A DNA stretch of 64,000 bases from an uncultured Acidimicrobiaceae bacterium (GCA_963785415.1 CAWAVB010000001.1:1821125-1885124), one strand, 5' to 3'. Numbered from the stretch's first letter, positions 1 through 60,048 are shown. Notes: generated by a model from the letters alone, not told the origin. Program-made: numbers and translations.

Positions 1-57
1 ACCTTCACCTACTCCAACCACTGCACGTCTCATGCGCTCGGTGATTCACATGGCTAG
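1..57 (+). CDS. 3' end of an ORF running in from upstream; possibly a paralog of the TasA/camelysin-like gene at 325..1047
   Basis: Frame 1 reads TFTYSNHCTSHALGDSHG then a stop at 55..57. The TFTY tail and the DNA accttcac.tac match the C-terminus (TPTFTYNYSS*) of the next gene. Only 18 codons are visible. Confidence 0.3.
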   Translation, partial: TFTYSNHCTSHALGDSHG

Positions 58-112
58 CGCACGACGACTTCGAGACTTCGGTCTCGATCGACAAGGTGTT
101 GCGGCTCTGCCC

Positions 113-138
113 GGCGGGGCGTTTATTCCCGCCCCGTC
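113..138 (+). terminator. GC-rich hairpin downstream of the partial ORF (possible terminator)
   Basis: The arm cggggcg (115..121) pairs with cgccccg (130..136) around a T-rich loop tttattcc. There is no clear U-tract. Confidence 0.3.
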
Positions 139-324
139 TGGACCGCACCAACGGGGAGTTCCCCCATGGGAGCTCCCTGGCAACAAACACGAACCCGCCT
201 GGGTTCCTGGACAAAGGCGACGTGATGATCCACAGGCCGTATCTGGTCGCCGGACCTGCGGGGAGCGACTGGCGAACCCGACGCCTCAGTCAGTAGTCCA
301 TCTATTGAAGAGAGGCAGAACGAT

Positions 325-1047
325 ATGAAATTCCGCTTTATTGCACTTATGGGAGTGCTGAGCCTCGCAGGCCTGGGCCTGGTCGGGGCTGGCGCTCACG
401 CCATTTGGACCACATCCTCCACGAGCAGCCAGACGATCACGGCAGGCACGCCCCAAGTCGTGTTGTCATCGGCCGACGCGAGCAACGGTTGCACCACCAT
501 TGCGATTGCCGAAGCCAATCCGGGGCCATGCAGCGGAACACTCACCTTGAATGCACCCGCCATTGTTGGATCGACGTTTGAAACGCCAGCCAGCCAGGTC
601 TGGGTGACTAACACCGGTGACGTCCCGGTGACTGAAACGAGCATCCAGATGGGTGCGTCGAGCGGCGGCTCGTCTGCCGACAACGCGTTGTTTTCCCAGA
701 TGAACGTGTGCCTCCACAGTTGGGACCTAAGTTACAACACCACCTACGCGGGCCCCGGTTGGGTTGAGGCAAACGCGCCTCTGAGTGAGGCCGTGGCTCT
801 GGTCCCGACCGTCGTAGAGAATCCGGTCGTCATAGCACCAGGGGCATCCATCTGGTACTCGATGGAGTTCTACGCAGGGAAAGACTCGGCCTGTGGCACG
901 ACCTGGAGCGATGGCGGGCACACGGCTTCTGCTTTGTCGGGAGCGACGTACCCAAACGTGAACCCCTGGGTTATGCCAGCGAGCCTGACCAACGCGGCTG
1001 AGGGCGGCGTTGTCACTCCGACCTTCACGTACAACTACAGCAGCTGA
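325..1047 (+). CDS. secreted TasA/camelysin-like protein with a SipW-cognate (actinobacterial alternate-type) signal peptide
   Basis: The N-terminus MKFRFIALMGVLSLAGLGLVGAGAHAIWTTSSTSSQTITAGTPQVVL is a hydrophobic signal followed by A-x-W...aGt, as in the signal-peptide family that co-occurs with SipW peptidases. The mature part is Ser/Thr/Gly/Asn/Val-rich. A purine-rich RBS (agagagg) lies upstream and a SipW-type peptidase gene lies directly downstream. G+C is lower than in the rest of the window. Confidence 0.7.
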   Translation: MKFRFIALMGVLSLAGLGLVGAGAHAIWTTSSTSSQTITAGTPQVVLSSADASNGCTTIAIAEANPGPCSGTLTLNAPAIVGSTFETPASQVWVTNTGDVPVTETSIQMGASSGGSSADNALFSQMNVCLHSWDLSYNTTYAGPGWVEANAPLSEAVALVPTVVENPVVIAPGASIWYSMEFYAGKDSACGTTWSDGGHTASALSGATYPNVNPWVMPASLTNAAEGGVVTPTFTYNYSS

Positions 1048-1072
1048 GCAGCCTTAGATAACAGCAGGACAA

Positions 1073-1107
1073 AGTAATGGGGGGATCTTTACGATCCCCC
1101 CATTACT
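1073..1107 (+). terminator. perfect 15-bp inverted repeat hairpin after the TasA-like gene
   Basis: agtaatggggggatc (1073..1087), loop tttac, gatccccccattact (1093..1107), 26 nt after the stop codon. No U-tract follows, so it may be a terminator, attenuator or RNA-stability element. Confidence 0.5.
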
Positions 1108-1316
1108 GCTATCTGGCGTCCAAGTTGGCACGGCATCTGCATACCTCACCGGGACCGAGCCTTGGGTCCGGCACTTCGTTCTTGTGGTAAAGCCGCCGTG
1201 CGATGATGAGGCGAACAGGCCGATGAGGTCACCAATGTTCGCGACGGCCTTCGCGGGTGGAAGGTTCACATTGGCGATTACCTGTGCGACGGCACACCGT
1301 CATCGCAGGAGGGATC

Positions 1317-2378
1317 ATGACAACGGACGACGCTCCTCCGGTGGCCGAGGACGGCACGCCGCCCCCTGTGGCCGAGGGGGACACTTCGCCGGTGGCCGAG
1401 GAGGGCATTCCACCGGTCGCTGAGGACGGTTCGCCGCCCCCTGTGGCCGAGGGGGACACTTCGCCGGTGGCCGAGGACGGTACGCCCCTGGTCGTCGAGG
1501 ACGAGACCCCTCCTGTCTCTGAGATCGGCACGCTTCCGGTCCCTGAGGTCGTCACCACTTCGGTCGCTGACGGCGGTACGCCTGCAGTCCCTGAGGTCGG
1601 CACCCCGCTGGTCGCCGAGGACGGCGCTCCCGTCCTTGAGGGCGACGCGCCTCTGGTCGTCGAGACCGGCACTCCTGGCATAGCTGAGGACGGCCTACGG
1701 GTCGATCAGGAAGGCATGCCGATCACTGCGGGTGGCACTCCGCCAGTCACAGGCGACATCTTCTTGGGCGCGGAGGAGGGCACTCCGAGAACCTCGGCAC
1801 GCCCACGCTCAAAGTACGCAACCTGGGCCAGGCGGCTTCGCATGGTTATCGCCTACGTGCTGCTGCTGGCGGTCCTTGGTGCAGCGGGAATCGCCGCTTT
1901 CGCACTGGTCCAAGGCACCTGGATGGTGTCACCGATCCTCTCGGGCAGCATGCGACCCGGACTCGCCGTCGGCGGAGTGGTCATCAGCCAGCGTGTCCCA
2001 GTGGACAGCCTGCACGTGCGGGACGTGATCGTGTTCGCCGGCCCGTACAAGCCCTCCGAGCAGATCGTGCACCGCATCGTCCGCATCACCAAGGGCCCCG
2101 GCGGAAAGCTCCTGTTCAAAACCCAGGGCGATGCGAACACGGTCCGGGACCCGTGGACCTTATCGATACCTGGGGGCTACGTATACCGAGCACGCTGGAC
2201 GGTCCCGCTCCTCGGCTACGTCGCCAACGCCTATCAGAACCACCGTGGTTTCTTTCTGCTCGGGGTTGGCATCGTCCTGATACTGATCGCTGTCAGCACG
2301 GTTCTTGGCACACGCCCACGCCGCCGCCGCCGACATGCGCGGCGAGCTACTCCGGCTACGTGGAGGAGCCTGCGGTGA
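1317..2378 (+). CDS. type I signal peptidase, SipW/archaeal-like (S26B), with a ~150-aa acidic Pro-rich repeat N-terminus
   Basis: Ser box SGSMRPGL, His box QIVHRIV and GDANTVRDPW are present. Hydrophobic helices sit before (VIAYVLLLAVLGAAGIAAFALV) and after (FFLLGVGIVLILIAVSTVL) the catalytic domain, followed by a basic tail. ATG 1317 is preceded by aggaggga; the ORF-track start at 1257 is less likely. Confidence 0.85.
   Translation: MTTDDAPPVAEDGTPPPVAEGDTSPVAEEGIPPVAEDGSPPPVAEGDTSPVAEDGTPLVVEDETPPVSEIGTLPVPEVVTTSVADGGTPAVPEVGTPLVAEDGAPVLEGDAPLVVETGTPGIAEDGLRVDQEGMPITAGGTPPVTGDIFLGAEEGTPRTSARPRSKYATWARRLRMVIAYVLLLAVLGAAGIAAFALVQGTWMVSPILSGSMRPGLAVGGVVISQRVPVDSLHVRDVIVFAGPYKPSEQIVHRIVRITKGPGGKLLFKTQGDANTVRDPWTLSIPGGYVYRARWTVPLLGYVANAYQNHRGFFLLGVGIVLILIAVSTVLGTRPRRRRRHARRATPATWRSLR
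1335..1784 (+). repeat. coding tandem repeat: about 17-18 imperfect 7-10-aa units (consensus P-P-V-A-E-D-G-T)
   Basis: PPVAEDGT PPPVAEGDTS PVAEEGI PPVAEDGS PPPVAEGDTS PVAEDGT PLVVEDET PPVSEIGT ... PGIAEDGL. A 46-nt exact direct repeat occurs at 1357..1402 and 1432..1477. Confidence 0.9.
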
Positions 2379-2397
2379 TGGACCTTGATGGAACCCG

Positions 2398-2622
2398 GTG
2401 AGTGACTTCCTCGTCATTTACCTCGACTCCATCGACGAGCAGCTCTTGGAGTACCTCGACGAGGACGACGAGCTGAGGCTTGATGCCGCCCAGCGGCTCA
2501 GGTTCTACACGAGAGTCCTACTCGAAGGTTCGATCAGCCCGGACCACGTCATGGAGGACTGGCCGGACTGGTATCAGCTCGCCCCCGCCTTCGTGGCCAC
2601 CTATGGCCCCGATGAGCTATAG
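2398..2622 (+). CDS. small acidic hypothetical protein (74 aa)
   Basis: ORF MSDFLVIYLDSIDEQLLEYLDEDDELRLD... with a GTG start 20 nt after the peptidase stop, on the same strand. No recognisable family. Its coding status rests only on position and the absence of a competing gene. Confidence 0.4.
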   Translation: MSDFLVIYLDSIDEQLLEYLDEDDELRLDAAQRLRFYTRVLLEGSISPDHVMEDWPDWYQLAPAFVATYGPDEL

Positions 2623-2768
2623 AAGCTGGAAGGCGCGGCGGAGTTCCTTGGAGCGATCGAGGAGGACGAGGAAGTGAACCTCACCGAGGCCGACCGGTCC
2701 TACCTCAAGGCCCTTGAGACGTGGCTTGGCATGTATCCAGAGATGCGACCCACCCAGTAGTGGCGAAC

Positions 2769-3365
2769 TCAGCTTTCCGGGAAGCCCCGGTCGATAGCTT
2801 CGAGGAGATCCGCGTCCGACAAGTGCAGGTACCTCGTAGTCGTCGCGATGTTGGAATGGCCCATCACGCGCTGCACGACGTGGATGTCCTCTCCCCGGCG
2901 CACCAGGCTCGTGGCGTAGCTGTGGCGCCACCGGTGGGGAAAGTGGCGACCCGCCACGCCCGCCGAGGTCCCGGCCTCTAGCACCAGATTGTGCAGCGCC
3001 CGGGGTCCGTAGCGACCGCGGAGGCTCCGGTTGCCGTTGGGGTTGGCGAACAAGTACGCGGACTCCGGCAGGCTGGGCCGTAGTGTTTCCCGGTACTCGC
3101 GGAGCACGTCCGCCAGAAGGTGGGGGATGGGGATCACCCGAGGTTTGCGTCCCTTGCCGACGAGCGAGATCTGCCGAGCCTCAAGGTCGACTTCGTCTGT
3201 GCGCAGGGTCACCAGTTCGCTCAGGCGCGGGCCGGTATATCGAAACGTGAGGAGGAGCACCCGGTCCACCTGCGCCGCCGACGAACGCCGCGTGCGGGTC
3301 CTCAAGGATCTCGACCAGGACGTCTCCGGCCGGGACGTCATCGTGACGGCCGGAGACGTCGACAC
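2769..3365 (-). pseudogene. truncated tyrosine recombinase (phage-integrase family); catalytic C-terminal domain only
   Basis: RLSELVTLR, HRWRHSYATSLV and VMGHSNIATTTRYLH (the R..H-x-x-R..H..Y boxes) are present. The N-terminal SAM-like/core-binding domain is missing. Family-like sequence starts near 3269; the first ~32 codons of the ORF are merely antisense to the hpt fragment. Confidence 0.7.
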
Positions 3366-3545
3366 GGGGCTATCGATCCGCTACGTCGTCGACTTCCTCG
3401 AGCGCCGGGGGCCCGCCAGGTCGGTCTGCGCGCTGCTCGACTGGCCGGTCGCCGCATCGTGCCGGTCCCGCTCCGGTCCTGCGGCACCGAGACCGGCGAG
3501 GACTTCCTCCTCGGCTACGGGCTTGATTTCGCCGACCTCTGCTAG
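3292..3545 (+). pseudogene. hpt: hypoxanthine phosphoribosyltransferase 3' fragment, frameshifted
   Basis: One frame reads VRVLKDLDQDVSGRDVIVTAGDVDTGLSIRYVVDFLERRGPARSVCALLDWP. The sequence continues in another frame as RRIVPVPLRSCGTETGEDFLLGYGLDFADLC*, with the frame switch near 3447..3452. The PRPP-loop acidic pair (E-D) is replaced by A-G, and the N-terminal half of the gene is absent. Confidence 0.65.
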
Positions 3546-3596
3546 GAGCCACCCGACGGGTGGACCCGAGGCGCCGCCGGCTCAGCAGCTGCGCGC

Positions 3597-3881
3597 TTAG
3601 GCGGTCTCATCCCTCCTCATCACGAGCCTGGACGATCCCTTCTCGGCATCCAAAGCCAGCTTCCAACGTGGCATCTGGTAGGCGAGCCAGCCGACAAGTC
3701 CCGCCGCCACGAAGAGCAAGGCTCCCCACCAGTAGCCGTAGGCGCAGAAGATGGCCCCGAGGGCGATCAGCCAAAGAGCAACGACGGCGCGAACAGCCGC
3801 AACGCCTTTGACGTGGCGCCACCCAAACCTCGGCACGCGGCGTCTGATGAAGGGCGGAACGGTTCTGGTCGATCCCCGCAT
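3597..3881 (-). CDS. small membrane protein, two predicted TM helices (hypothetical)
   Basis: AAVRAVVALWLIALGAIFCAYGYWWGALLFVAAGLVGWLAY is a hydrophobic hairpin. No family recognised. Confidence 0.45.
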   Translation of the reverse strand: MRGSTRTVPPFIRRRVPRFGWRHVKGVAAVRAVVALWLIALGAIFCAYGYWWGALLFVAAGLVGWLAYQMPRWKLALDAEKGSSRLVMRRDETA

Positions 3882-3963
3882 TGGCCCGTCTTTCTTGTGC
3901 CGGTGTCCCCGGTTGAGGGGTGCTTCTTCGATCGTCTCAGCTTGGGCCCGCCCGCGCAGCTTG

Positions 3964-4782
3964 TCAGCGCATCAATTGTCGCAGCACCCGGTAGCCGATG
4001 GTCGCCAGACCGTTCGTGTCGACGAGCCGGCTGAGCGTTCCCCGGGCTTCGAGCAGGGTGGCGTCGGTGATCCGTGCCTGCCAGTCGACGGCGGAGGCGC
4101 GCAACTCCGGCGTGTCGAGTGCCGGCGCGGCACGCACCTCGGTGATCCCCGGCGGGACGAGGTTGAGGTCTGACGCGTCCCCGGTGAACGCCGATATCGG
4201 CAGGACTCGGTCCGGGGCGAGGACGCCCCGTTCGATTGCGAGTTCGCGAAACGGAAAGCCGACCCGCCGTTCCTCCTCGGGGCCCGGGAGGCGCACAGGG
4301 AGCCGGAGCTCATCGGCGAGATCGAGGTAGACGTCGAAGAACTCCGGCTTCAGTTCCACCCCCCCGAGATGGGCGTCGAGATGGGTCACGTCGAATCCCC
4401 AGAGGATCGACCGGTCGATCTGGGCGCGCCACTCGTGCCGCACCTCGTCGAGATCGGCGTGCTCCCAGACGTCCTCGATCGTCCGGGGGAAGCCCCCTTC
4501 GCCGTCGAGCAGCGACGGGGCGTGGGTGATCGGTCCCCAGCGATAGAGCTCGTGCTCCGCGTTCAACGTGAGGTGGACGCCGACGTCTTCGCCGCGATAG
4601 GCGTGAACGGCGCCCCTCGCCCAGGGGGCGGGGACCATCAGCGAGGCGGACGTGGCGGCACCCTGGCGCAACGCGCCGTAGATCGCGACGTTCGCGGCGT
4701 GCAGGAAGCCGAGATCGTCGCACGTGACGATCAGCACGCGCGCCTCAGGTGCCAGTCCGAGCCGAGCGGCGAGTGAGGTCAT
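3964..4782 (-). CDS. ChbG/YdjC-family carbohydrate deacetylase
   Basis: Family motifs are present: VTCDDLGF...ATSASLMV, VGVHLTLN and VTHLDAHLG. Confidence 0.8.
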   Translation of the reverse strand: MTSLAARLGLAPEARVLIVTCDDLGFLHAANVAIYGALRQGAATSASLMVPAPWARGAVHAYRGEDVGVHLTLNAEHELYRWGPITHAPSLLDGEGGFPRTIEDVWEHADLDEVRHEWRAQIDRSILWGFDVTHLDAHLGGVELKPEFFDVYLDLADELRLPVRLPGPEEERRVGFPFRELAIERGVLAPDRVLPISAFTGDASDLNLVPPGITEVRAAPALDTPELRASAVDWQARITDATLLEARGTLSRLVDTNGLATIGYRVLRQLMR

Positions 4783-4806
4783 CGGTCCAGCGGTGATCGC
4801 GGCCGG

Positions 4807-5298
4807 TCAGTCGCCGATCCGGCTCTGCAGCGAGGCGTCGCGCGCCCGCACGTCGCGCGCCAGGCGTTGCTGGAACTCGACGACAGCCGCGGCGACGCGT
4901 TCGTCGGTGATGCCGATCATGCGCGCGGCGAGCAGTCCGGCATTGCGCGCGCCGTCGATCCCGACGGTCGCCACCGGCACGCCGCGGGGCATCTGCACCA
5001 TCGAAAGCAGCGAATCGAGCCCCGAGAGCGCGGGGAGCGCGATCGGCACGCCGATCACCGGAAGCGACGTGGCCCCGGCGAGCACGCCTGCGAGGTGCGC
5101 CGCGCCACCCGCACCCGCGATGATGACCTGGATGCCGCGGGCACGGCAGTCGCGCGCGTACCCGAGCGCGTCTTCGGGTGTGCGGTGCGCCGAGATGACG
5201 CGCATTTCCCACGGGATGCCCAACTCGTCGAGGGCTTCGGCGGCTTGACGCATCACCGTCTCGTCGGAGTCGCTCCCCATCACGATCGCGACGCTCAT
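4807..5298 (-). CDS. purE: 5-(carboxyamino)imidazole ribonucleotide mutase
   Basis: VAIVMGSDSD, ISAHRTP and IIAGAGGAAHLAGV are present; the 163-aa length is typical. No purK lies adjacent. Confidence 0.93.
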   Translation of the reverse strand: MSVAIVMGSDSDETVMRQAAEALDELGIPWEMRVISAHRTPEDALGYARDCRARGIQVIIAGAGGAAHLAGVLAGATSLPVIGVPIALPALSGLDSLLSMVQMPRGVPVATVGIDGARNAGLLAARMIGITDERVAAAVVEFQQRLARDVRARDASLQSRIGD

Positions 5299-5379
5299 CG
5301 GTCGTCCACCTTACGGCGAGGAAGGTCGTGTCGTCCGACGACGCCGACGGTGCGGGGCGCGCCGTCGCCGGGCGGAGGC

Positions 5380-5919
5380 CTAGTCGCGGCCGCCGAGCGG
5401 AGCGAGCCGCTTCCCGATCAACCCGAGCACCCGCCCGATCGCCATGCCGCCGACGACGTCCGAGGCGTGGTGGATACGGACGTAGACCCTGCTGGTGGCG
5501 ACGACCACCGCCGTCGCGAAGTACAAGGGCGCGAGCCGCTCGTCGCCGTCCGAGAGCAACGTCGCCCCGCAGAAGGCCGCGGTGGCATGACCGGAGGGGA
5601 AGCTCGAGGACAGCGGCTGCCGCAATGGAAGGGGGTGATCGTGGTTGTTCACCGGGCGATGGCGGCGCACGAATGACTTCATGACGACGTTGACGAGAAA
5701 CGACTCGACACCGGTCGCGACGATCGCCCGCAACGCCGCCTTCTCGTGGGTGCGACCGCCGCGCCACGCGCGCAGGAGCGCGAAGACGACCCAGATCAGC
5801 CCGAATTCGCCGAGCGCGGAGGCGGTGTAGAAGACCCGGTCCGCAACGGGGTTCCCGCGGATGTGATCGAACAGCGCGTCGACGCGCTCGTCGAAGTCCG
5901 CGACGAGCTGGTTGGCCAT
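5380..5919 (-). CDS. PAP2-family membrane phosphatase
   Basis: All three PAP2 boxes are present: KSFVRRHRP, FPSGHA and SRVYVRIHHASDV. Confidence 0.85.
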   Translation of the reverse strand: MANQLVADFDERVDALFDHIRGNPVADRVFYTASALGEFGLIWVVFALLRAWRGGRTHEKAALRAIVATGVESFLVNVVMKSFVRRHRPVNNHDHPLPLRQPLSSSFPSGHATAAFCGATLLSDGDERLAPLYFATAVVVATSRVYVRIHHASDVVGGMAIGRVLGLIGKRLAPLGGRD

Positions 5920-5943
5920 CGCGGCCCGAGGTTAGTCGGGCCG

Positions 5944-6744
5944 CTACGCGGTCGCCTCGTTCGTCGCGGGTGCCGCACCCGCAAATGCAGGGCAGAGCGG
6001 CCGGAATGCGCACGTCTTGCACAGAGCCGAGGGACTCGGGCGGAAGTCCCCGGAAGTGCACGCCCGGCCGATCGCATCCCAGACCGCGAGGGCCCGCTGG
6101 CGAACAGCGCGCATTCCCTGATCGGTCGGGGACTCGACGAGGACGACCTCGTCGCGCAGGTACATGAGGCGGACCTCTTGCGGGCGGGTGCCGAGCACCT
6201 CCTCGCACAGCATGGCGTAGAAGTACACACCGGCGAGGCTCGTGCGCGACCGCTCGGGCGGCGGCGCCCGTCCGGTCTTGTAGTCGACAACCGCGAGCTG
6301 ACCACCGCCGAGATCGTCGAGGCGGTCGATGATCCCGCGCAGCTCCACGCCTTCGAGGGTCGCGTGCAGGTCGAGCTCGAGTCCGACGTCGTGCACCGTC
6401 GTCGGGTCCTCGAGGGAGAAATACCGCTCGAGGAGCTCCGTCGCGTCCTCGAGGAGGTGACGCGAGGCGGCGTCGTCGAGCGCCAGCCCGGTGAACTCCT
6501 CCGATTCCGAGATCTCGCCCCACGCCGCGGTGAGCGACTCACGCGCCCGCTCCCGGCTCCGTTCGGGGCCCTGGGCGGAGCTGAAGAGAAGCTCGAGTGC
6601 TTTGTGCACGAGCGTGCCGCGCACTTGCTGGACCGAGGACGGCTCGGGGAGCCGGTCGATGTGCGCGTAACGGAAGGCGAGCGGGCACTGCACGAATCGG
6701 GCGAGCTTCGAAGGGGACAGGGTGCTCGGCAGGGGAAGGGGCAT
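5944..6744 (-). CDS. PD-(D/E)XK RecB-family/Cas4-like nuclease with Cys cluster
   Basis: LSPSKLARFVQCPLAFRY at the N-terminus, an IIDRLD...VVDYKTG nuclease core and a C-terminal CKTCAFRPLCP. The start is moved to the internal ATG at 6744, because the longer ORF (to 6882) overlaps the upstream hydrolase gene. Confidence 0.8.
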   Translation of the reverse strand: MPLPLPSTLSPSKLARFVQCPLAFRYAHIDRLPEPSSVQQVRGTLVHKALELLFSSAQGPERSRERARESLTAAWGEISESEEFTGLALDDAASRHLLEDATELLERYFSLEDPTTVHDVGLELDLHATLEGVELRGIIDRLDDLGGGQLAVVDYKTGRAPPPERSRTSLAGVYFYAMLCEEVLGTRPQEVRLMYLRDEVVLVESPTDQGMRAVRQRALAVWDAIGRACTSGDFRPSPSALCKTCAFRPLCPAFAGAAPATNEATA

Positions 6745-6757
6745 CGCTGTGTTGAGG

Positions 6758-7594
6758 CTACGCCCCGGCTGTGTCCACCGCCGACAGGAAAGCCGCGGCC
6801 AGCGCCGCCGGGTCTTCGCACGGGCCGGAGTGACCGAGTCCCGCGAACTCCTCGACGACGCCGTTGACCAGCCTCGCGGCAATCGTGTCGGCTGCTGCCG
6901 CCGACAGCACGTTCGATGCCGATCCCCGGGCGATCGTCACGGGGCAGCCGATCGCGCCGAGCCGACCGTAGATCTCGAAGTGCCGGGCCGCCTCGTAGAT
7001 GCGCGCCTCGTTCTCGGGTGGGCAGGCGAGTCCGACCGAGCCGTCGGGTAGGTCGACCAGACCGCCCTCGAGGTAACCGGCGAGCGCGTCGGGGTCCCAG
7101 TCCCCGAAGTGCGGGTTCTCGCGGAAGCGATCTGCCGCCTCGGACCGGGACGCGAACACCGCCCGGCGGCGACGCGCGACCTCGGCGATCCCGCCGTCGG
7201 GCGGATCGGGCACCTCCGGGGCAAAGACGATCGGCTCGTAACAGAACAGGCGAGCGAAGGTGCCCGGCTTCCCGGCTTCGACGCCGAGGATCGCTGTCGC
7301 GCCGAGGGAATGGCCGAACGCGACGGGGTGGTCGAATTCGAGCCTGTCCACAGCGATGCGCACGTCGTCGACGAAACCCGCCCAACCGAAATGGGGCGGC
7401 GCCGACGACGCGCCGTGTCCGCGCAGATCGAGCGCCCAGCACGCAAAGCGCGCCGAGAGGTGCCGTGCGAGAGGGCCGAGGCACAGGCCGTTTGCGCCGG
7501 CACCGTGGACGAGCAGCGCGGATTGTCCTTCGCCACCAAGGTCATAGGCGACGAGCTCGACCCCATCGGTGCTCGCGAGTCTCACGGTCGACAC
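6758..7594 (-). CDS. alpha/beta-fold hydrolase
   Basis: LLVHGAGANG and the nucleophile elbow FGHSLGA are present; size is typical. Confidence 0.8.
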   Translation of the reverse strand: MSTVRLASTDGVELVAYDLGGEGQSALLVHGAGANGLCLGPLARHLSARFACWALDLRGHGASSAPPHFGWAGFVDDVRIAVDRLEFDHPVAFGHSLGATAILGVEAGKPGTFARLFCYEPIVFAPEVPDPPDGGIAEVARRRRAVFASRSEAADRFRENPHFGDWDPDALAGYLEGGLVDLPDGSVGLACPPENEARIYEAARHFEIYGRLGAIGCPVTIARGSASNVLSAAAADTIAARLVNGVVEEFAGLGHSGPCEDPAALAAAFLSAVDTAGA

Positions 7595-7671
7595 GCGGGA
7601 ACGCTACCGCCGGCCGGTGCGCGACCCGCCGGCGGGAGGACCGCGGTCCCGGGTCGAGTACAACTAGGGGC

Positions 7672-8316
7672 GTGCAACACCTCCTCACTGAATCGGGCTA
7701 CGCCGCGCTCATCCTTTTCGCCTTCGCCGAGGCCTGCTGCGTGCCGATCCCGTCGGAGGTCACGTTCGGGTTCGCCGGCGTGCTCGCCGCGTCGGGCCGG
7801 CTGAATCTCGCGCTCGTGCTCAGCGTGGGCATCGTGGCCGAGCTCGCCGGGTCGTCGACCGCTTTCGGTGTCGGACGGATCGGAGGCCGGCCGCTCGTCG
7901 AACGTCTCGGCCGGTACGTCCTCCTCACCTCAAGGGATCTCGACCGCGCCGAGCGCTGGTTGTCGGGCAGGGGGGAGTTCGCCGTGACGATCGGCCGCGC
8001 CATGCCCGTCGTGCGCGCGTTCACGTCGATCGTCGCCGGGACGGCCGAGATGCCCCTCTGGCGCTTCGAGATCTTCAACTTCATCGGCACCGTCGTCTAC
8101 ACGAGCGCCTTCGCCGCGGTCGGATACGAGGTCGGCAACGAGTGGAAGCGCATCGCGCACGACTTCTCGATCGCCGGCTACGTGCTCGCCGGACTCGTCG
8201 TCGTCGCCGTCGTGGCGTTCATCGTCGTGAGAGTCCGCGAGTTCCGCCGCGAACACCGCCTGGCGGGTGCGACTCCCGGAACCTCGAGAGACGACGGGGA
8301 CGCAGCGGTCCGCTAG
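7672..8316 (+). CDS. DedA-family membrane protein
   Basis: GYAALILFAFAEACCVPIPSEV...FGRxxP..R matches the DedA/SNARE-associated pattern. The start is set at in-frame GTG 7672; the upstream 250 codons of ORF 6916..8316 are an Arg-rich artefact antisense to the hydrolase. Confidence 0.85.
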   Translation: MQHLLTESGYAALILFAFAEACCVPIPSEVTFGFAGVLAASGRLNLALVLSVGIVAELAGSSTAFGVGRIGGRPLVERLGRYVLLTSRDLDRAERWLSGRGEFAVTIGRAMPVVRAFTSIVAGTAEMPLWRFEIFNFIGTVVYTSAFAAVGYEVGNEWKRIAHDFSIAGYVLAGLVVVAVVAFIVVRVREFRREHRLAGATPGTSRDDGDAAVR

Positions 8317-8381
8317 GAGAGGCTCCAGCACCTACCCGATCGCCGGGCCACGCGCGACCGCGCCTTGGGCTGCGCGCCGCG

Positions 8382-9521
8382 CTAATCCGTGACGAGTGGA
8401 ACCTCGAAGCTCATCTCGGTTCCCGATTCGGCACCGGGCGCGATCGTGAACGATCCTCCGAGGAGCTTGGCGCGCTCGGCCATGTTCGTGAGGCCCCTGC
8501 TCGCGGGGCTCGACTCGGTCGGCAGACCGATGCCGTCGTCGGAGACCGTGAGCCGGAGCCGGTGGTCCGCGACCTCGAGGCCGACATGGACCCGGCTGGC
8601 GTGCGCGTGGCGGGCGACGTTCGTCAGGGCTTCGCGCAGCACCGCGAGCATGTGCCCGGTGACGTGTTCGCTCACCTCGGTGTCGATCGGGCCGGAGACC
8701 GAGACGGATGGTTCGAAGCCCAGGCTGCGGACGGACTCGGCGCACAGCTCCGCCACACGTGTGCTCGGACTGCGTCGGCCGACCGGGAGGGGCTCGAGGG
8801 CGAAGATCGCCGTCCGGATCTGGCGGATCGTGTCGTCGAGGTCGTCGACCGCGGTGTGGATCACCCGCAACGCCTCCGGGGTCTGAATCATCCGGATCGT
8901 GCTCTGCAGCGACAGGCCGGTCGCGAACAGCCGCTGGATCACGGTGTCGTGGAGGTCGTGCGCGATCCGGGCGCGTTCGGCCGCGACGCCGAGCTCGCCC
9001 ACTTTGGCGTGCAACCGGGCGTTGTCGACGACGGTCCCGGCGGCCAGCGCAAGGGCCTGCAGGATGTCGCCGTCCTCCTCGGTGAACTCGTCGGCACCCA
9101 TCTTCTCGGTGAGGTAGAGGTTGCCGAAGACCTCCCCGTGGACGAGGATCGGCACCCCGATGAAGGAACGCATCGCCGGATGGTGGGCGGGGAAACCGAC
9201 CGAGGCCGGGTGTTTCGTGAGGTCGGCGAGTCGCAACGGGTGTTCGGTGTCGAAGATCATCCCGAGGATGCCCTCACCGCGCGGCAGGTGGTCGATTCGG
9301 TCGACCTCCTCGGGGGTGAACCCGACGTTCACGAACTGGGCGAGGCGTCCGGAACCGGGCTCGATCACGGCGAGCGCCCCGTAGCGGGCGTTGACGAGCT
9401 GGCGGGCCTGTTCGACGATGTCGCGGAGCGCGGCATCCAGGTCGAGGTCGGCTTCGAGGACGAGTACGGCGTCGAGCAGCTGCTGGAGGCGTTGCGCGTC
9501 GGACACCCGCCGGTAAGGCAT
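8382..9521 (-). CDS. cytoplasmic GAF-domain sensor histidine kinase (HisKA_3/NarL-partner type, DevS-like)
   Basis: GAF domain (GVPILVHGEVFGNLYLTEK), H-box (RARIAHDLHDTVIQRLF) and ATPase boxes (LTNVARHA, DDGIG, GLTNMAERA) are present. No TM segment. The start ATG at 9521 was checked in frame. Confidence 0.88.
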   Translation of the reverse strand: MPYRRVSDAQRLQQLLDAVLVLEADLDLDAALRDIVEQARQLVNARYGALAVIEPGSGRLAQFVNVGFTPEEVDRIDHLPRGEGILGMIFDTEHPLRLADLTKHPASVGFPAHHPAMRSFIGVPILVHGEVFGNLYLTEKMGADEFTEEDGDILQALALAAGTVVDNARLHAKVGELGVAAERARIAHDLHDTVIQRLFATGLSLQSTIRMIQTPEALRVIHTAVDDLDDTIRQIRTAIFALEPLPVGRRSPSTRVAELCAESVRSLGFEPSVSVSGPIDTEVSEHVTGHMLAVLREALTNVARHAHASRVHVGLEVADHRLRLTVSDDGIGLPTESSPASRGLTNMAERAKLLGGSFTIAPGAESGTEMSFEVPLVTD

Positions 9522-10217: not shown

Positions 10218-10517
10218 TCACGGGCGCCCACGCGATTCCGGGTGCGACGGGCCGCCGAATCCCGGTACTCGTCTGCCATCGCCACTCGGCGCGGTGACAC
10301 CAGCGCCGCCTGTGGCAGATGGACCAAGCGAAACACGGTCTCTGGAAGAGATTCCTGGTATCGCGACGGTGCATCGCGGCATTTGCTACGTCGGCCGAAA
10401 CGGCGATTCACCCGCCGGAGGAGCGACGACCGGCCGCCTCGCCGGGGCGCGCTCGAGCGCGAAGTTCCACCCGCCGCACGTCGTCGTGTTCGGCCGAACA
10501 AGGGCGCTTCCGGTCAG

Positions 10518-10588
<71 letters not shown>

Positions 10589-11671: not shown

Positions 11672-11680
11672 TCCGACGAG

Positions 11681-11755
11681 TCGGGGAGGCGGGATTCGAA
11701 CCCGCGACCTCCTGCTCCCAAAGCAGGCGCGCTAACCAAGCTGCGCCACTCCCCG
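11681..11755 (-). tRNA. tRNA-Pro (anticodon UGG)
   Basis: Reverse complement CGGGGAG TG GCGC AGCTTGGTTA GCGC G CCTGC TTTGGGA GCAGG AGGTC GCGGG TTCGAAT CCCGC CTCCCCG A. Confidence 0.93.
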
Positions 11756-59824: not shown

Positions 59825-59966
59825 CGATCCCGCTGGTCATCCGAGAGCCTGAGCGCCCGAGTCATCGCAGCGTGTCGCACCTCTCCGTTAGCGAACCGTG
59901 AGCAACGGATGCGATAAGGCTCGGACGTCCACCTGCCGTCTCGCGCACCTGCGGTTCGAGAGCTCG

Positions 59967-60048
59967 TGCGGGCGAGAGGACTCGAACCTCCAACCCCGAA
60001 GGGACCGGGACCTAAACCCGGCGCGTATGCCAGTTTCGCCACACCCGC
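59967..60048 (-). tRNA. tRNA-Leu (anticodon UAG)
   Basis: Reverse complement GCGGGTG TG GCG AAACTGGCATA CGC G CCGGG TTTAGGT CCCGG TCCCTTCGGGGTT GGAGG TTCGAGT CCTCT CGCCCGC A. The long variable arm is typical of class II tRNAs. Confidence 0.92.

What the first reader, a model, noticed from the sequence alone, without database searches (positions are those of the whole stretch)
1..2622. TasA/camelysin-like secreted protein(s) with a dedicated SipW-type signal peptidase: candidate uncharacterised surface-fibre module
Seen in sequence: a 240-aa secreted protein has a signal peptide ending ...GAGAHAIW..ITAGT. A partial upstream ORF ends with the same TFTY tail, suggesting tandem paralogs. An S26B (SipW/archaeal-type) signal peptidase with Ser and His boxes follows, then a small acidic ORF, all on one strand, separated by a perfect 15-bp hairpin. 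G+C is visibly lower than in the rest of the window. Established knowledge: in Bacillus, tapA-sipW-tasA builds biofilm fibres, and archaeal bundling pili are TasA-like subunits. The actinobacterial alternate-type signal peptide family is known only from genomic co-occurrence with such peptidases. Inference: this is a horizontally acquired fibre or matrix-forming secretion module whose product and role in this lineage are uncharacterised.
Basis: partly seen in the sequence, partly recalled or inferred. Interest (0 to 1): 0.65.

Follow-up and report, generated by a model that had tools for sequence, protein, structure and literature searches.

The report
Riboswitch-controlled TasA-like fibre gene cassette

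Summary
Window 325-1047 encodes a 240-aa secreted protein. A perfect 15-bp hairpin follows at 1073-1107, then an ER/archaeal-type (SipW-like) signal peptidase at 1317-2378. All lie on one strand in DNA of lower G+C.

The protein belongs to a small family (377 representatives among 1.84 billion proteins) found mainly in uncultured Acidimicrobiales. No Pfam model captures it. Its predicted fold matches the TasA fibre best, and a SipW-like gene follows it in all 26 related loci.

Three points need correcting:
- The upstream "TFTY" ORF is not a TasA paralog. It is the tail of an Ig-repeat fragment belonging to a 685-aa multi-Ig protein. That protein shares only the signal peptide and N-terminal strand, in the manner of TapA.
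- The "small acidic ORF" is a nonsense-truncated copy of a conserved 121-aa gene that also occurs without the module.
- A c-di-GMP-II-class riboswitch (209-292) lies 32 nt upstream of the start codon. The same aptamer precedes fibre genes in 20 of 26 loci, and GGDEF genes flank several modules.

Best reading: a c-di-GMP-gated fibre cassette assembled by donor-strand exchange, carried on a 9.3-kb IS30-associated unit. Polymerisation and ligand binding are inferred, not shown.

The parts
1..57 (+). Last 18 codons plus stop of an Ig-like repeat fragment (TFTYSNHCTSHALGDSHG*). It is a remnant, or the frameshifted C-terminus, of the upstream 685-aa multi-Ig protein, whose body lies outside the window.
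   Evidence: the full ORF is L003 9407-9733, in a different frame from the 685-aa ORF (L003 7524-9581). One extra C in the C5 run at about L003 9551-9555 would join them. Big_13, E 6.8e-6; the 685-aa protein is 71% identical to the 240-aa protein over residues 1-42 only.
92..150 (+). Conserved structured intergenic element, CAAGGTGTTGCGG-[GC hairpin]-CCGCACCAAC. It contains a terminator-like hairpin with a T run at 104-120.
   Evidence: terminator-like site; the same element follows the big Ig gene in L009 (6894), L026 (7801) and L034 (7738), with different inner-stem sequences.
184..208 (+). Hairpin motif CAAACACGAACCC-GCCT-GGGTTCCTGG, directly 5' of the aptamer.
   Evidence: the pattern is present in 11 fetched loci; it sits immediately upstream of type-A aptamers in many loci; it is included in metatranscriptome contigs.
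209..292 (+). c-di-GMP-II-class (clan CL00127) riboswitch aptamer.
   Evidence: RF01786, 49.4 bits (GA 53.5), E 4e-9 to 8e-8, full model 1-84; the only such hit in the 64-kb window; equivalent aptamers in related loci score above GA; 92 bits with model R1; covariation, including the pseudoknot.
283..316 (+). Predicted expression platform. The P1 3' strand GCCUC (283-287) can pair with the Shine-Dalgarno region GAGGC (312-316) around the small hairpin UCAGUAG/CUAUUGA (290-308).
   Evidence: in the free fold and when the P1 5' strand is blocked, the SD is paired. When P1 is forced, the SD pairing is released. An equivalent pairing is predicted in L012 8901, L025 7884 and L027; aptamer-to-ATG spacing is about 30-34 nt in the closest loci.
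325..1047 (+). TasA-superfamily fibre subunit candidate, 240 aa. Signal peptide is residues 1-26 (325-402). Predicted SipW cleavage is AHA|IW. The conserved N-terminal strand is residues 27-44 (403-456).
   Evidence: AF2 pLDDT 87.5; best PDB match 8aur_A, TasA fibre, E 2.3e-5; weak TasA, M73 and TIGR04088 links in family members; residues 27-44 are more conserved (0.70) than the rest of the mature protein (0.49).
1073..1107 (+). Perfect 15-bp stem-loop (AGTAATGGGGGGATC-TTTAC-GATCCCCCCATTACT) followed by GCTATCTGG. Probably a partial terminator or a 3' stabiliser for the subunit mRNA.
   Evidence: a hairpin with the same GGGGGGATC core, a co-varying outer stem and a downstream TCTATCTGG lies after TasA-like genes in L009, L012, L014, L015, L019, L027, L032, L033 and L036.
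1317..2378 (+). SipW-like (ER/archaeal-type, S26B) signal peptidase I, 353 aa. Residues 1-165 (1317-1811) are an acidic Pro-rich PPVAEDGT-type repeat. Two TM segments flank the catalytic domain. Ser211 is at 1947-1949, His252 at 2070-2072 and Asp272 at 2130-2132.
   Evidence: TIGR02228 66.2 bits > 51.85; alignment to SEC11A/C; tandem repeats; the N-terminal extension is conserved in Acidimicrobiales homologs; pI 4.05, 33 D+E, 28 P.
2398..2760 (+). Conserved acidic ~121-aa gene, interrupted by an in-frame TAG at 2620-2622. The called 74-aa ORF is its first part. Not a demonstrable part of the fibre module.
   Evidence: more than 200 homologs, 77-91% identical, about 120-128 aa, with Gln at the stop position; homologs in L038-L042 have no TasA-like or SipW neighbour.
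2769..3365 (-). N-terminally truncated tyrosine recombinase (integrase) fragment.
   Evidence: Phage_integrase 97 bits. It matches only XerC model positions 119-292.
3963..3971 (.). Right-hand boundary of the 9.3-kb IS30-associated unit. GTCAGCGCA is joined to the IS30 left end in contig L004.
   Evidence: L004 1-8109 equals L003 5539-13647 at 100%, and L004 8095-9314 equals L003 4319-5538. L003 13647 corresponds to window 3971.

Best explanation
The region is the 3' two-thirds of a cassette for a fibre or matrix scaffold of the TasA superfamily. The host is an uncultured actinobacterium, most likely Acidimicrobiales.

Proposed mechanism, with shown and inferred steps marked:
1. A c-di-GMP-II-class riboswitch lies in the leader at 209-292. 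The aptamer is shown by sequence, structure and covariation. Its ligand is inferred.
2. Without ligand, the 3' strand of helix P1 pairs with the Shine-Dalgarno sequence. With ligand, P1 closes and translation of the 240-aa subunit turns on (inferred from folding).
3. The subunit is exported by Sec and cut after AHA by the dedicated SipW-like Ser/His peptidase encoded downstream. The enzyme class is shown. That the subunit is its substrate is inferred from invariant gene linkage.
4. The freed, highly conserved N-terminal strand (residues 27 to about 44) inserts into the beta-sandwich of the next subunit, as in TasA, giving a non-covalent fibre (inferred).
5. The upstream 685-aa multi-Ig protein carries the same signal peptide and N-terminal strand but has no acceptor domain. 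It would act like TapA, donating the first strand and ending up at one fibre end as an adhesin or anchor (inferred).
6. The conserved strong hairpin after the subunit gene limits read-through, so that much subunit and little peptidase are made (inferred).
7. The whole unit lies on a 9.3-kb IS30-associated segment that also occurs as a circularly permuted contig (shown).
For: Fold and family:
- The AF2 model is confident (pLDDT 87.5, pTM 0.77).
- The only PDB match with E <= 0.001 is the TasA fibre 8aur (E 2.3e-5, probability 1.0). Second is the Pyrodictium cannula fibre.
- Of 58 family members, 32 touch Peptidase_M73, 28 touch TIGR04088 and 18 touch the TasA model. Three members pass the TIGR04088 cutoff.
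- hhalign aligns window residues 9-111 to TasA 9-89, placing IWTTSSTSSQTITAGT on the TasA donor strand AFNDIKSKDATFASGT (donor strand = residues 28-38 per PMC9674648).
- The post-cleavage strand is the most conserved part of the mature protein (0.70 against 0.49).

Linkage:
- In all 26 distinct related loci, one to four TasA-like genes are followed on the same strand by a SipW-like gene.
- A large protein with the same signal peptide lies upstream in at least 10 loci.
- The peptidase passes TIGR02228 and aligns to the SEC11 Ser/His/Asp residues.

Riboswitch:
- Rfam hits were found in the window and in 8 of the 9 other loci scanned; 11 hits are above the gathering score.
- With model R1 there are 41 hits, all on the gene strand, in 20 of 26 loci, and one in the 64-kb window.
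- Pairs are 79% formed against 69% in shuffles (0 of 500 reach it). The pseudoknot pair changes C-G to U-A ten times.
- Spacing to the ATG is about 30-34 nt in the closest loci. An SD-sequestering alternative fold is predicted.

Independent c-di-GMP link:
- PAS-GGDEF genes directly follow SipW in L019 and L026.
- A TPR-GGDEF gene directly precedes the module in L007.
- A PAS-GGDEF-EAL gene lies in L028.

Expression:
- Peat metatranscriptome contigs 88-99% similar cover the aptamer and the subunit gene.

Mobility:
-.
Against: - The window protein passes no curated protein-family cutoff. It has no Pfam hit, and TIGR04088 scores 9.9 bits against a cutoff of 19.
- M73 hits in relatives cover only the N-terminal ~45 residues and score 13-19 bits against a cutoff of 22.5.
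- hhalign probability is only 52%.
- A profile search of PDB sequences found nothing.
- The Foldseek TM-score to TasA is only 0.45.
- Nothing here shows polymerisation. The multimer model that would test it could not be run.
- The window's aptamer is 4 bits below the Rfam gathering score and has two mismatches in P3, although the same variants occur in other members.
- Several related aptamers score best with the GCG/GAG variant models. From memory, the ligand of those variants has not been established.
- SD sequestration appears in only about half of the leaders folded.
- No cell-wall anchor signal (LPXTG) is present in either secreted protein, so attachment is unexplained.
Confidence: 0.68

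Rival explanations
1. The 240-aa protein is a SipW-processed secreted or surface protein that does not polymerise. It might be a monomeric adhesin, a coat protein or a camelysin-like protein. The riboswitch then simply places it in the c-di-GMP surface regulon.
For: Similarity of the globular part to TasA rests on a single fold match with TM 0.45. No sequence profile links the globular domain to TasA. c-di-GMP-II riboswitches are known upstream of non-fibre surface-anchor proteins (PMC9481103).
Against: The most conserved part of the mature protein is the N-terminal strand, which aligns to the TasA donor strand and is not packed in the monomer model (residues 27-44: no strand, block-mean pLDDT 58-81). 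The same strand is grafted onto an unrelated multi-Ig protein. That makes sense for strand donation but not for a monomer. The top two fold hits are both donor-strand fibres.
Confidence: 0.2
2. The fibre model is right, but the riboswitch senses a ligand other than c-di-GMP (another cyclic dinucleotide or an unknown compound), or it is an OFF switch.
For: Many related aptamers score best with the Rfam variant models RF03170 (GCG) and RF03169 (GAG) rather than RF01786. The window aptamer is below the RF01786 gathering score. Folding supports SD sequestration in only about half of the leaders.
Against: The bulged AA between the two pseudoknot segments (GGCG-AA-CC) is invariant, as in the canonical GUGC-AA-CC consensus. 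GGDEF and EAL genes directly flank modules in four loci. RF01786 is the best-scoring model for the window aptamer and for several other hits.
Confidence: 0.15
3. The cassette is a decaying remnant in this genome and no longer works.
For: The big Ig gene ends in a frame-shifted repeat fragment. The 121-aa gene carries a nonsense codon. The integrase is truncated. No intact aptamer was detected directly upstream of the big Ig gene in this organism, although one is present there in L012 and L025.
Against: The subunit gene, its aptamer, the hairpin and the peptidase gene are all intact. They are identical in assemblies from four samples. Closely related transcripts are present in peat metatranscriptomes. 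The frameshift sits in a C5 run in the four assemblies, so a homopolymer error in assembly cannot be excluded.
Confidence: 0.1
4. The protein is a ribosomally synthesised peptide precursor, as the JGI annotation of homologs suggests ([quoted passage not shown]).
For: JGI gives this name to many homologs.
Against: That name is only the label of the signal-peptide model. The mature part is a confidently folded 214-residue beta-sandwich. No modification enzymes are linked to it.
Confidence: 0.01

Closest known systems
Bacillus subtilis tapA-sipW-tasA biofilm fibre operon (PMC9674648, PMC10151520)
   Same: A secreted beta-sandwich subunit with a SipW-type signal peptide, followed by a conserved N-terminal strand. 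A dedicated ER-type signal peptidase in the same operon. A second secreted protein that shares only the N-terminal strand (TapA there, the multi-Ig protein here). The predicted fold's best PDB match is the TasA fibre.
   Different: Gene order is big protein, subunit, peptidase. The globular domain is not detectably homologous by sequence. The partner protein is a 685-aa multi-Ig protein, not a single V-set domain. Control is by a c-di-GMP-II-class riboswitch rather than the SinR/SlrR repressor circuit (that comparison is from memory). The peptidase carries a 165-residue acidic Pro-rich N-terminal extension. The host is a high-G+C actinobacterium.
Clostridium perfringens sipW-bsaA-bsaB-bsaC (PMC11580942, PMC7395162)
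   Same: A remote TasA homolog with a dedicated SipW, several paralogous subunits in related loci, and a large accessory secreted protein in the operon.
   Different: BsaA locks subunits with an Asn-Glu-Lys isopeptide bond. The mature protein here has a single, non-conserved Lys and no Arg, so that lock is excluded. There is no link to type IV pilus genes.
Archaeal TasA-superfamily fibres: AbpA, AbpX, cannulae (CanA) and Tafi (PMC9245690; 10.64898/2026.01.04.697558; 10.1101/2024.12.30.630787; PMC12337348)
   Same: Donor-strand fibres built from small beta-sandwich subunits. They are often encoded beside a TIGR02228-type signal peptidase and predicted tip or minor subunits. The cannula fibre is the second-best fold match.
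   Different: This cassette is bacterial, exported by Sec rather than Tat, and its peptidase has two TM segments (the AbpX-linked enzyme has ten). No riboswitch is reported in the papers read here on those systems.
c-di-GMP-II riboswitches upstream of surface and pilus genes in Clostridia (Rfam RF01786; PMC9481103)
   Same: The same aptamer class, placed in the 5' leader of genes for surface structures. Several aptamers occur per locus.
   Different: It is found here in Acidimicrobiales and other Actinomycetota. The pseudoknot is GC-rich and falls between RF01786 and the RF03170/RF03169 variants. The predicted control is translational with a platform of about 32 nt. It is linked to TasA-like/SipW operons, and no paper in the searched library holds both terms.
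NCBIfam TIGR04088 (SipW-dependent-type signal peptide) and TIGR04089 (alternate-type signal peptide)
   Same: An N-terminal signal peptide plus a conserved following segment, co-occurring with SipW-type peptidases.
   Different: The window protein is below the TIGR04088 cutoff (9.9 against 19 bits), and only some relatives pass. TIGR04089 is matched weakly by 3 of 58 members.

Membership tests
TasA/camelysin (Pfam PF12389 Peptidase_M73; NCBIfam NF046066 TasA) | Sequence match to the family model above its curated cutoff | tested here: not met
   The window protein has no Pfam hit. Relatives score 13-19 bits against a cutoff of 22.5, over the N-terminal ~45 residues only. For NF046066 the best E-value among members is 9e-4, and the members scored singly reached at most 15.7 bits against the 450-bit equivalog cutoff.
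TasA superfamily (fold level) | Beta-sandwich/jelly-roll subunit fold similar to TasA | tested here: inconclusive
   AF2 pLDDT is 87.5. The Foldseek top hit is 8aur_A, the TasA fibre (E 2.3e-5, probability 1.0), but TM is only 0.45.
TasA superfamily | N-terminal donor strand directly after the signal-peptidase cut | tested here: inconclusive
   hhalign places residues 27-44 on the TasA donor strand (E 1.4e-4, probability 52%). This is the most conserved mature segment and is shared with the multi-Ig protein.
TasA superfamily | Polymerisation into fibres | not testable with these tools
   Needs a multimer prediction or an experiment.
TasA-type operon | Dedicated SipW-type peptidase encoded next to the subunit gene | tested here: met
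   Window 1317-2378. The same arrangement holds in 26 of 26 related loci.
TIGR04088 SipW-dependent-type signal peptide | Score at or above the 19-bit cutoff | tested here: not met
   The window protein scores 9.9 bits. Relatives P0058, P0042 and P0071 pass at 19.9-23.6 bits. 28 of 58 members match at E <= 1.
TIGR04089 alternate-type signal peptide (actinobacterial) | Match to the model | tested here: not met
   No hit for the window protein. 3 of 58 members match, best E 0.0044.
Signal peptidase I, archaeal/ER type (TIGR02228; MEROPS S26B) | Score above cutoff, and a Ser/His (not Ser/Lys) catalytic pair | tested here: met
   66.2 bits against 51.85. SGSM, VHRIV and GDAN align to the SEC11A/C catalytic boxes. 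The bacterial P-type model TIGR02227 scores only 24.9 bits against 47.
Bacillus SipW equivalog (NF046067) | Score at or above 190 bits | tested here: not met
   58.3 bits. It is related to SipW but is not the Bacillus ortholog.
c-di-GMP-II riboswitch (Rfam RF01786, clan CL00127) | Score at or above the gathering score of 53.5 bits | tested here: not met
   The window hit scores 49.4 bits (E 4e-9, full-length model). Aptamers at the equivalent position in related loci score 56-64 bits. The second aptamer of the same locus, just outside the window, scores 53.8 bits.
c-di-GMP-II riboswitch | P1-P2-P3 helices and pseudoknot, supported by covariation | tested here: met
   23 of 28 pairs change on both sides. 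79% of cells are paired against 69% in shuffles and 33-44% when the partner is slid. Pseudoknot pair C-G changes to U-A ten times. The alignment was fitted to the model, which favours the structure.
c-di-GMP-II riboswitch | Binds c-di-GMP | not testable with these tools
   Only indirect support: GGDEF/EAL genes flank modules in 4 loci.
BsaA-type isopeptide-locked fibres | Conserved Asn-Glu-Lys triad | tested here: not met
   The mature protein has 1 Lys (K186, a variable column) and 0 Arg.
Sortase-dependent Gram-positive pili | LPXTG-type sorting signal | tested here: not met
   No [LIVN]PX[TSA]G motif in the 240-aa or the 682-aa protein. No sortase gene in the locus.

The most novel reading that the evidence does not exclude
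A self-contained, IS30-mobilisable "biofilm fibre cassette" specific to peat and soil Acidimicrobiales. Each structural gene (tip or nucleator Ig-adhesin and fibre subunits) is individually gated by its own c-di-GMP-II-type riboswitch acting on translation. This would be an RNA-only link from c-di-GMP to a TasA-superfamily matrix fibre in Actinomycetota. It might use a GC-adapted aptamer subtype and a signal peptidase whose long acidic cytoplasmic tail has a role of its own.
Probability: 0.35. Interest if true: 0.7.

Novelty: new variant of a known kind. Interest (0 to 1): 0.55.

Why it matters
Acidimicrobiales are abundant in peat, fen and soil and are almost entirely uncultured. How they attach or build a matrix is unknown. 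This cassette gives a concrete, testable model made of a few parts: a subunit, a dedicated peptidase, a candidate TapA-like Ig adhesin and an RNA switch. All of these can be expressed in a heterologous host.

It extends the TasA donor-strand fibre theme to a sequence family that Pfam does not capture. It also ties that family directly to c-di-GMP through a riboswitch. In the literature library searched, c-di-GMP-II riboswitches were linked to other surface proteins, mainly in Clostridia, and never to TasA-like/SipW operons.

The aptamers lie between the canonical class and the GCG/GAG variant classes. They could therefore help settle what those variants bind. The apparent mobility of the whole unit suggests that matrix-forming ability can move between strains.

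Tried and rejected
- Profile search of the family against PDB sequences: no hit even at E <= 10.
- Pfam and NCBIfam on the window protein: nothing significant.
- Genome-collection scan with the 58-sequence alignment failed for lack of conserved blocks. The scan with the single protein found no relative. It succeeded with a 17-sequence alignment.
- The sigma-70-type promoter scan of 1-3500 found none, so the promoter of the subunit gene is not located.
- The exact hairpin sequence occurs only in copies of the same locus. Its conservation showed up only when each intergenic region was folded.
- I tried to test strand exchange with a single-chain dimer (mature-linker-mature, paired alignment).
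- I tried to look for the circular junction of contig L004 in sequencing runs.
- Tandem TasA paralogs in this locus: rejected.
- The small ORF as a module component: rejected.
- A BsaA-like isopeptide lock and sortase anchoring: rejected.
- Supplementary files of the paper that lists the riboswitch variants are not held. The statement that the GCG/GAG ligands are unknown therefore rests on memory.

Full report
**1. What is in the window**

On the + strand, searches show the following:
- A short ORF tail at 1-57 (TFTYSNHCTSHALGDSHG*).
- A 267-nt non-coding stretch.
- A 240-aa ORF at 325-1047. Its N-terminus is MKFRFIALMGVLSLAGLGLVGAGAHA|IWTTSSTSSQTITAGT.
- A perfect 15-bp stem-loop at 1073-1107. 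The MFE of the 86-nt region is -38.5 kcal/mol, z = -5.15, and none of 200 shuffles folds as well.
- A 353-aa ORF from the ATG at 1317 (preceded by GGAGGG) to 2378.
- A 74-aa acidic ORF at 2398-2622.

On the - strand, 2769-3365 is the C-terminal half of a tyrosine recombinase. G+C is 0.61-0.65 in the first 3 kb against about 0.70 in the rest of the window. GC3 is 0.72 for the subunit gene and 0.74-0.77 for the peptidase gene. The neighbouring housekeeping genes have GC3 of 0.86-0.92.

**2. The 240-aa protein**

Neither Pfam nor NCBIfam places it. It has no Pfam hit, and TIGR04088 scores 9.9 bits against a cutoff of 19.

A search of 5.8 billion proteins gave 156 relatives. None has a precomputed Pfam domain, and many carry JGI's label for the TIGR04088 signal peptide. 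A full HMMER profile search of 1.84 billion cluster representatives found only 377 proteins at E <= 0.001. This is a small, self-contained family.

In named genomes, the relatives are almost all uncultured Acidimicrobiales or Acidimicrobiaceae MAGs from peat, fen, palsa and Danish soils. A few are Nocardioides or Propionibacteriales MAGs. The locus itself is held by soil, peat, wetland and freshwater-sediment metagenomes.

When family members are scanned individually, 32 of 58 touch Peptidase_M73, 28 touch TIGR04088 and 18 touch the TasA equivalog. The M73 matches cover only the first ~45 residues and stay below the gathering score. Three members pass the TIGR04088 cutoff.

Profile-to-sequence comparison with B. 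subtilis TasA gives E 1.4e-4 at 52% probability, over the signal peptide and the first strands only. I checked that TasA sequence against PDB 8aur and 5of1.

An AlphaFold2 model built on the family alignment is confident, with pLDDT 87.5 and pTM 0.77. Its only PDB match at E <= 0.001 is the cryo-EM TasA fibre, 8aur_A (E 2.3e-5, probability 1.0, TM 0.45). The next match is the Pyrodictium cannula fibre, another donor-strand polymer of the TasA superfamily.

The protein is thus TasA-like at the level of the signal peptide, the N-terminal strand and the overall fold. It is not a member of PF12389 by that model's own threshold.

**3. Evidence bearing on polymerisation**

In TasA, residues 28-38, directly after the SipW cut, form the donor strand. 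TapA carries a similar N-terminal strand that nucleates the fibre (PMC9674648; PMC10151520). Here:
- The segment right after the predicted cut (residues 27-44) aligns to the TasA donor strand.
- It is the most conserved part of the mature protein, with mean majority-residue frequency 0.70 against 0.49 for the rest.
- It is left unpacked in the monomer model, with no strand and block-mean pLDDT of 58-81.

The mature protein has one non-conserved Lys and no Arg, four Cys, and a pI of about 4. This excludes the Asn-Glu-Lys isopeptide lock described for C. perfringens BsaA (PMC11580942). There is no LPXTG motif.

Polymerisation itself is inferred.

**4. The peptidase**

Residues 166-353 pass the archaeal/ER-type signal peptidase model TIGR02228, at 66.2 bits against a cutoff of 51.85. 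They are far below the bacterial P-type model. The best PDB sequence relatives are human SEC11A and SEC11C. The SGSM (Ser211), VHRIV (His252) and GDAN...D boxes align to them. This is the Ser/His chemistry of SipW-type enzymes.

Two hydrophobic segments flank the catalytic domain, and an Arg-rich tail follows.

Residues 1-165 are an acidic, Pro-rich tandem repeat of the PPVAEDGT type, with 33 D+E, 28 P and pI 4.05. By the positive-inside rule this region should be cytoplasmic. Homologs in other Acidimicrobiales loci have the same kind of extension in variable length. They share the start MTT(D/E) and a conserved DIF(L/V)G...TPR...SK motif before the first TM segment. I have no explanation for its role.

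**5. The upstream ORF and the true operon**

The same locus occurs in long contigs from four metagenome samples. These supply the sequence upstream of the window. Window position 1 corresponds to L003 position 9677.

Upstream lies a 685-aa ORF (L003 7524-9581). Its first 42 residues are 71% identical to those of the 240-aa protein, covering the signal peptide plus FTTSTTSSQTITAGT. There is no other similarity. The rest consists of Ig-like repeats, two MBG_2 domains and two Big_3_5 domains.

The ORF tail at window 1-57 belongs to a 108-aa ORF in another frame (L003 9407-9733). It encodes the last 45 residues of one of those Ig-like repeats (Big_13, E 6.8e-6). One extra C in a C5 run would fuse it to the 685-aa frame. 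It is therefore either a homopolymer error in the assemblies or a real scar.

Either way, "TFTY" is the end of an Ig-domain strand, not a TasA-like C-terminus. The "tandem paralog" idea fails for this locus.

Tandem TasA-like paralogs are nevertheless common in the family. I scanned all fetched loci with HMMs of the family, of its signal peptide region, and with the peptidase. The results were:
- All 26 distinct loci have one to four TasA-like genes followed on the same strand by a SipW-like gene.
- At least ten loci have a large (about 400-1070 aa) protein with the same signal peptide upstream.

A protein that has the strand but no acceptor domain is what TapA is to TasA. I therefore read the multi-Ig protein as a nucleator and end-located adhesin or anchor. 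This is an inference.

**6. The small acidic ORF**

It has more than 200 homologs that are 77-91% identical and about 120-128 aa long. Reading through the window's TAG at 2620-2622 restores the full conserved sequence up to 2760, and homologs have Gln at that position. It is thus a nonsense-interrupted copy of a conserved Acidimicrobiales gene.

Homologs in five other contigs have no TasA-like or SipW gene nearby. One is again next to an integrase fragment. A truncated piece does follow SipW in L009, so the junction is old. The gene is still not a consistent part of the module.

**7. The riboswitch (the main addition)**

While folding the intergenic regions I saw repeated conserved elements in the leaders, so I scanned against Rfam.

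*Rfam hits.* Window 209-292 matches the c-di-GMP-II riboswitch RF01786 over the full model. It scores 49.4 bits, the gathering score is 53.5, and E is 4e-9. It is the only riboswitch hit in the 64-kb window. In nine other loci scanned with Rfam, hits of the same clan sit just upstream of TasA-like genes and of the big Ig-protein genes (no hit in L026 lies next to a TasA-like gene). Eleven hits are above their gathering scores, and they fall under RF01786, RF03170 and RF03169. One of these is a second aptamer of this same locus, about 670-680 nt upstream of the 685-aa gene (L004 1233-1316, 53.8 bits).

*Own model.* A covariance model built from 17 of these hits found 41 matches in 456 kb. All are on the gene strand, and they fall in 20 of the 26 distinct loci.

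*Covariation.* On the resulting alignment, 79% of cells pair, against 69% in shuffles (0 of 500 reach that) and 33-44% when the partners are slid. 23 of 28 pairs change on both sides. The pseudoknot pair changes from C-G to U-A in ten sequences. The alignment was fitted to the model, which favours the structure. The invariant GGCG-AA-CC keeps the bulged AA of the canonical consensus GUGC-AA-CC.

*Expression platform.* The distance from the aptamer to the start codon is about 30-34 nt in the closest loci. That leaves no room for a terminator. In thermodynamic folds of the window leader, the P1 3' strand GCCUC (283-287) pairs with the SD region GAGGC (312-316), unless P1 is forced to form. Equivalent pairings are predicted in L012 8901, L025 7884 and L027 (a shifted form appears in the free fold of L034), but not in the leaders that carry the AGCAGTTCATTGCGAGG platform. 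I therefore predict a translational ON switch, with moderate confidence.

*Independent support for c-di-GMP.* PAS-GGDEF genes directly follow SipW in L019 and L026. A TPR-GGDEF gene directly precedes the TasA-like genes in L007. A PAS-GGDEF-EAL gene lies in L028.

*Expression in nature.* Peat metatranscriptome contigs at 88-99% similarity cover the aptamer and the subunit gene. These are contigs of related strains, so they show that such genes are expressed in nature and no more than that.

**8. The hairpin**

The exact sequence is unique to this locus. However, a hairpin at the same place follows the last or major TasA-like gene in at least nine diverged loci. It has the same GGGGGGATC / GATCCCCCC core and different but complementary outer stems (AGTAAT/ATTACT, GTGGT/ACCAC, GTAGT/ACTAC). 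It is usually followed by TCTATCTGG.

It lacks a clean T run. Its position, between a structural gene needed in bulk and an enzyme needed in small amounts, fits a partial terminator or a 3' stabiliser. This is an inference. Roske et al. note that TapA and SipW are much less abundant than TasA.

**9. Mobility**

In the chromosomal contigs, an IS30-like transposase and a Peptidase_A4 gene lie upstream of the operon. Contig L004, 9,314 bp and from a fourth sample, is a circular permutation of L003 4319-13647:
- L004 bases 1-8109 equal L003 5539-13647 at 100%.
- L004 bases 8095-9314 equal L003 4319-5538 at 99.6%.
- The two ends of L004 are contiguous in L003.
- A novel junction joins window position 3971 (GTCAGCGCA, at the stop codon of the neighbouring YdjC gene) to the IS30 left end.

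This fits an excised circle or a tandem copy of a 9.3-kb unit. The unit carries IS30, Peptidase_A4, both riboswitches, the Ig protein, the subunit, the peptidase, the interrupted 121-aa gene, the integrase fragment and a 94-aa ORF.

The low GC3 of the core genes adds to this, as do the different chromosomal contexts of related modules, many of which sit next to transposases or recombinases. The likely donors are other members of the same lineage.

**10. Comparison with what is known**

TasA homologs (PF12389) were already reported in Actinobacteriota by genome surveys (PMC9245690). A 2026 cluster analysis places Actinomycetota sequences in the bacterial TasA cluster (10.64898/2026.01.04.697558). 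The co-occurrence of SipW-type peptidases with special signal peptides is captured by TIGR04088/04089. c-di-GMP-II riboswitches upstream of surface proteins are known in Clostridia (PMC9481103).

I found no experimental study of a TasA-like system in Actinomycetota in the library. I also found no paper that holds both a c-di-GMP riboswitch term and TasA, SipW as a subject, or camelysin.

The finding is therefore a new variant of a known kind. It is a distinct, unannotated TasA-superfamily family with a TapA-like multi-Ig partner, riboswitch gating of each fibre gene, and carriage on an IS30-associated unit.

**11. Verdict**

- The best explanation has confidence of about 0.68.
- Interest is 0.55.

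Noticed in passing
window 1-3971; L003 4319-13647; L004 whole contig: Contig L004 (9,314 bp, from a different sample) is a circular permutation of the chromosomal segment IS30 + Peptidase_A4 + fibre operon + integrase fragment. A novel junction joins window 3971 to the IS30 left end. This fits an excised circle or tandem copy of an IS30-associated unit.
   Followed up: partly
window 2398-2760 (+): The 74-aa ORF is a nonsense-interrupted copy of a very conserved ~121-aa acidic Acidimicrobiales protein of unknown function (TAG at 2620-2622 where homologs have Gln; homologs are 77-91% identical). The homologs occur without the fibre module, once again beside an integrase fragment.
   Followed up: yes
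window 1317-1811 (+): The SipW-like peptidase carries a 165-residue acidic, Pro-rich tandem repeat (PPVAEDGT-like; DNA periods 24 and 75) at its predicted cytoplasmic N-terminus. Related Acidimicrobiales enzymes have the same extension in variable length. I cannot assign it a function.
   Followed up: partly
L003 9540-9585, just upstream of window position 1: The 685-aa multi-Ig ORF and the Ig-repeat fragment that runs into the window differ in frame by one base at a C5 run. The run is identical in four assemblies. It is either a homopolymer error in assembly or a real frameshift scar.
   Followed up: partly
window 92-150 and 184-208; L009 6894 and 7913; L026 7801; L034 7738; L027 4731-4787: Two further conserved leader elements. 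One is CAAGGTGTTGCGG-[hairpin]-CCGCACCAAC after the big Ig gene. The other is one or two copies of GGCAGCAAACAGGGACCC-N-GGGTTCCTGG directly 5' of the aptamer. They have no Rfam match and their roles are unknown.
   Followed up: partly
L004 1233-1316 (= L003 6771-6854), outside the window: A second aptamer subtype ("type B": CCCAGCGAGGGAAGC...TAGCGAACCCG) lies about 570-680 nt upstream of the big Ig-protein genes in several loci. Its P1 and pseudoknot co-vary relative to the type found in front of the subunit genes. In this organism no intact aptamer was detected directly upstream of the big Ig gene; only 3'-part-like sequence is recognisable there.
   Followed up: partly
L019 10590-11711; L026 12550-13674; L007 5632-7086; L028 41-2326: Diguanylate cyclase genes (PAS-GGDEF, TPR-GGDEF, PAS-GGDEF-EAL) lie directly beside related fibre modules. 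No ORF of 180 aa or more with a GG[DE]EF motif occurs in this 64-kb window.
   Followed up: yes
L015 4037-5353; L031 4595-5920; L033 3746-4954; L035 9611-10807; L036 11563-12762: In one branch of the family, a longer (about 400-440 aa) TasA-like protein sits directly upstream of the SipW gene; in four of the five it lacks a match to the family signal-peptide model, and in L015 the match is weak. It may be a minor or anchoring subunit.
   Followed up: no
window 403-1044 (mature subunit): The mature subunit has 1 Lys and 0 Arg in 214 residues, a pI of about 4, and four Cys that could form two disulfides (two Cys conserved across the whole family, two only among close relatives). This composition suits an acidic, protease-rich environment such as peat.
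   Followed up: no
L003 5541-6104, upstream of the window: A Peptidase_A4 (acid-active glutamic peptidase family) gene lies inside the same IS30-associated unit, upstream of the fibre operon.
   Followed up: no
window 10517-10588, 11680-11755, 59966-60048 (-): Three tRNA genes (Gly-TCC, Pro-TGG, Leu-TAG). None is adjacent to the integrase fragment, so there is no sign of tRNA-targeted integration.
   Followed up: no
window 181-900, laid with peat metatranscriptome contigs: Metatranscriptome contigs 88-99% similar cover the riboswitch and the subunit gene. Word depth is very high over the aptamer and signal-peptide region, probably because many paralogs and strains share these segments.
   Followed up: partly
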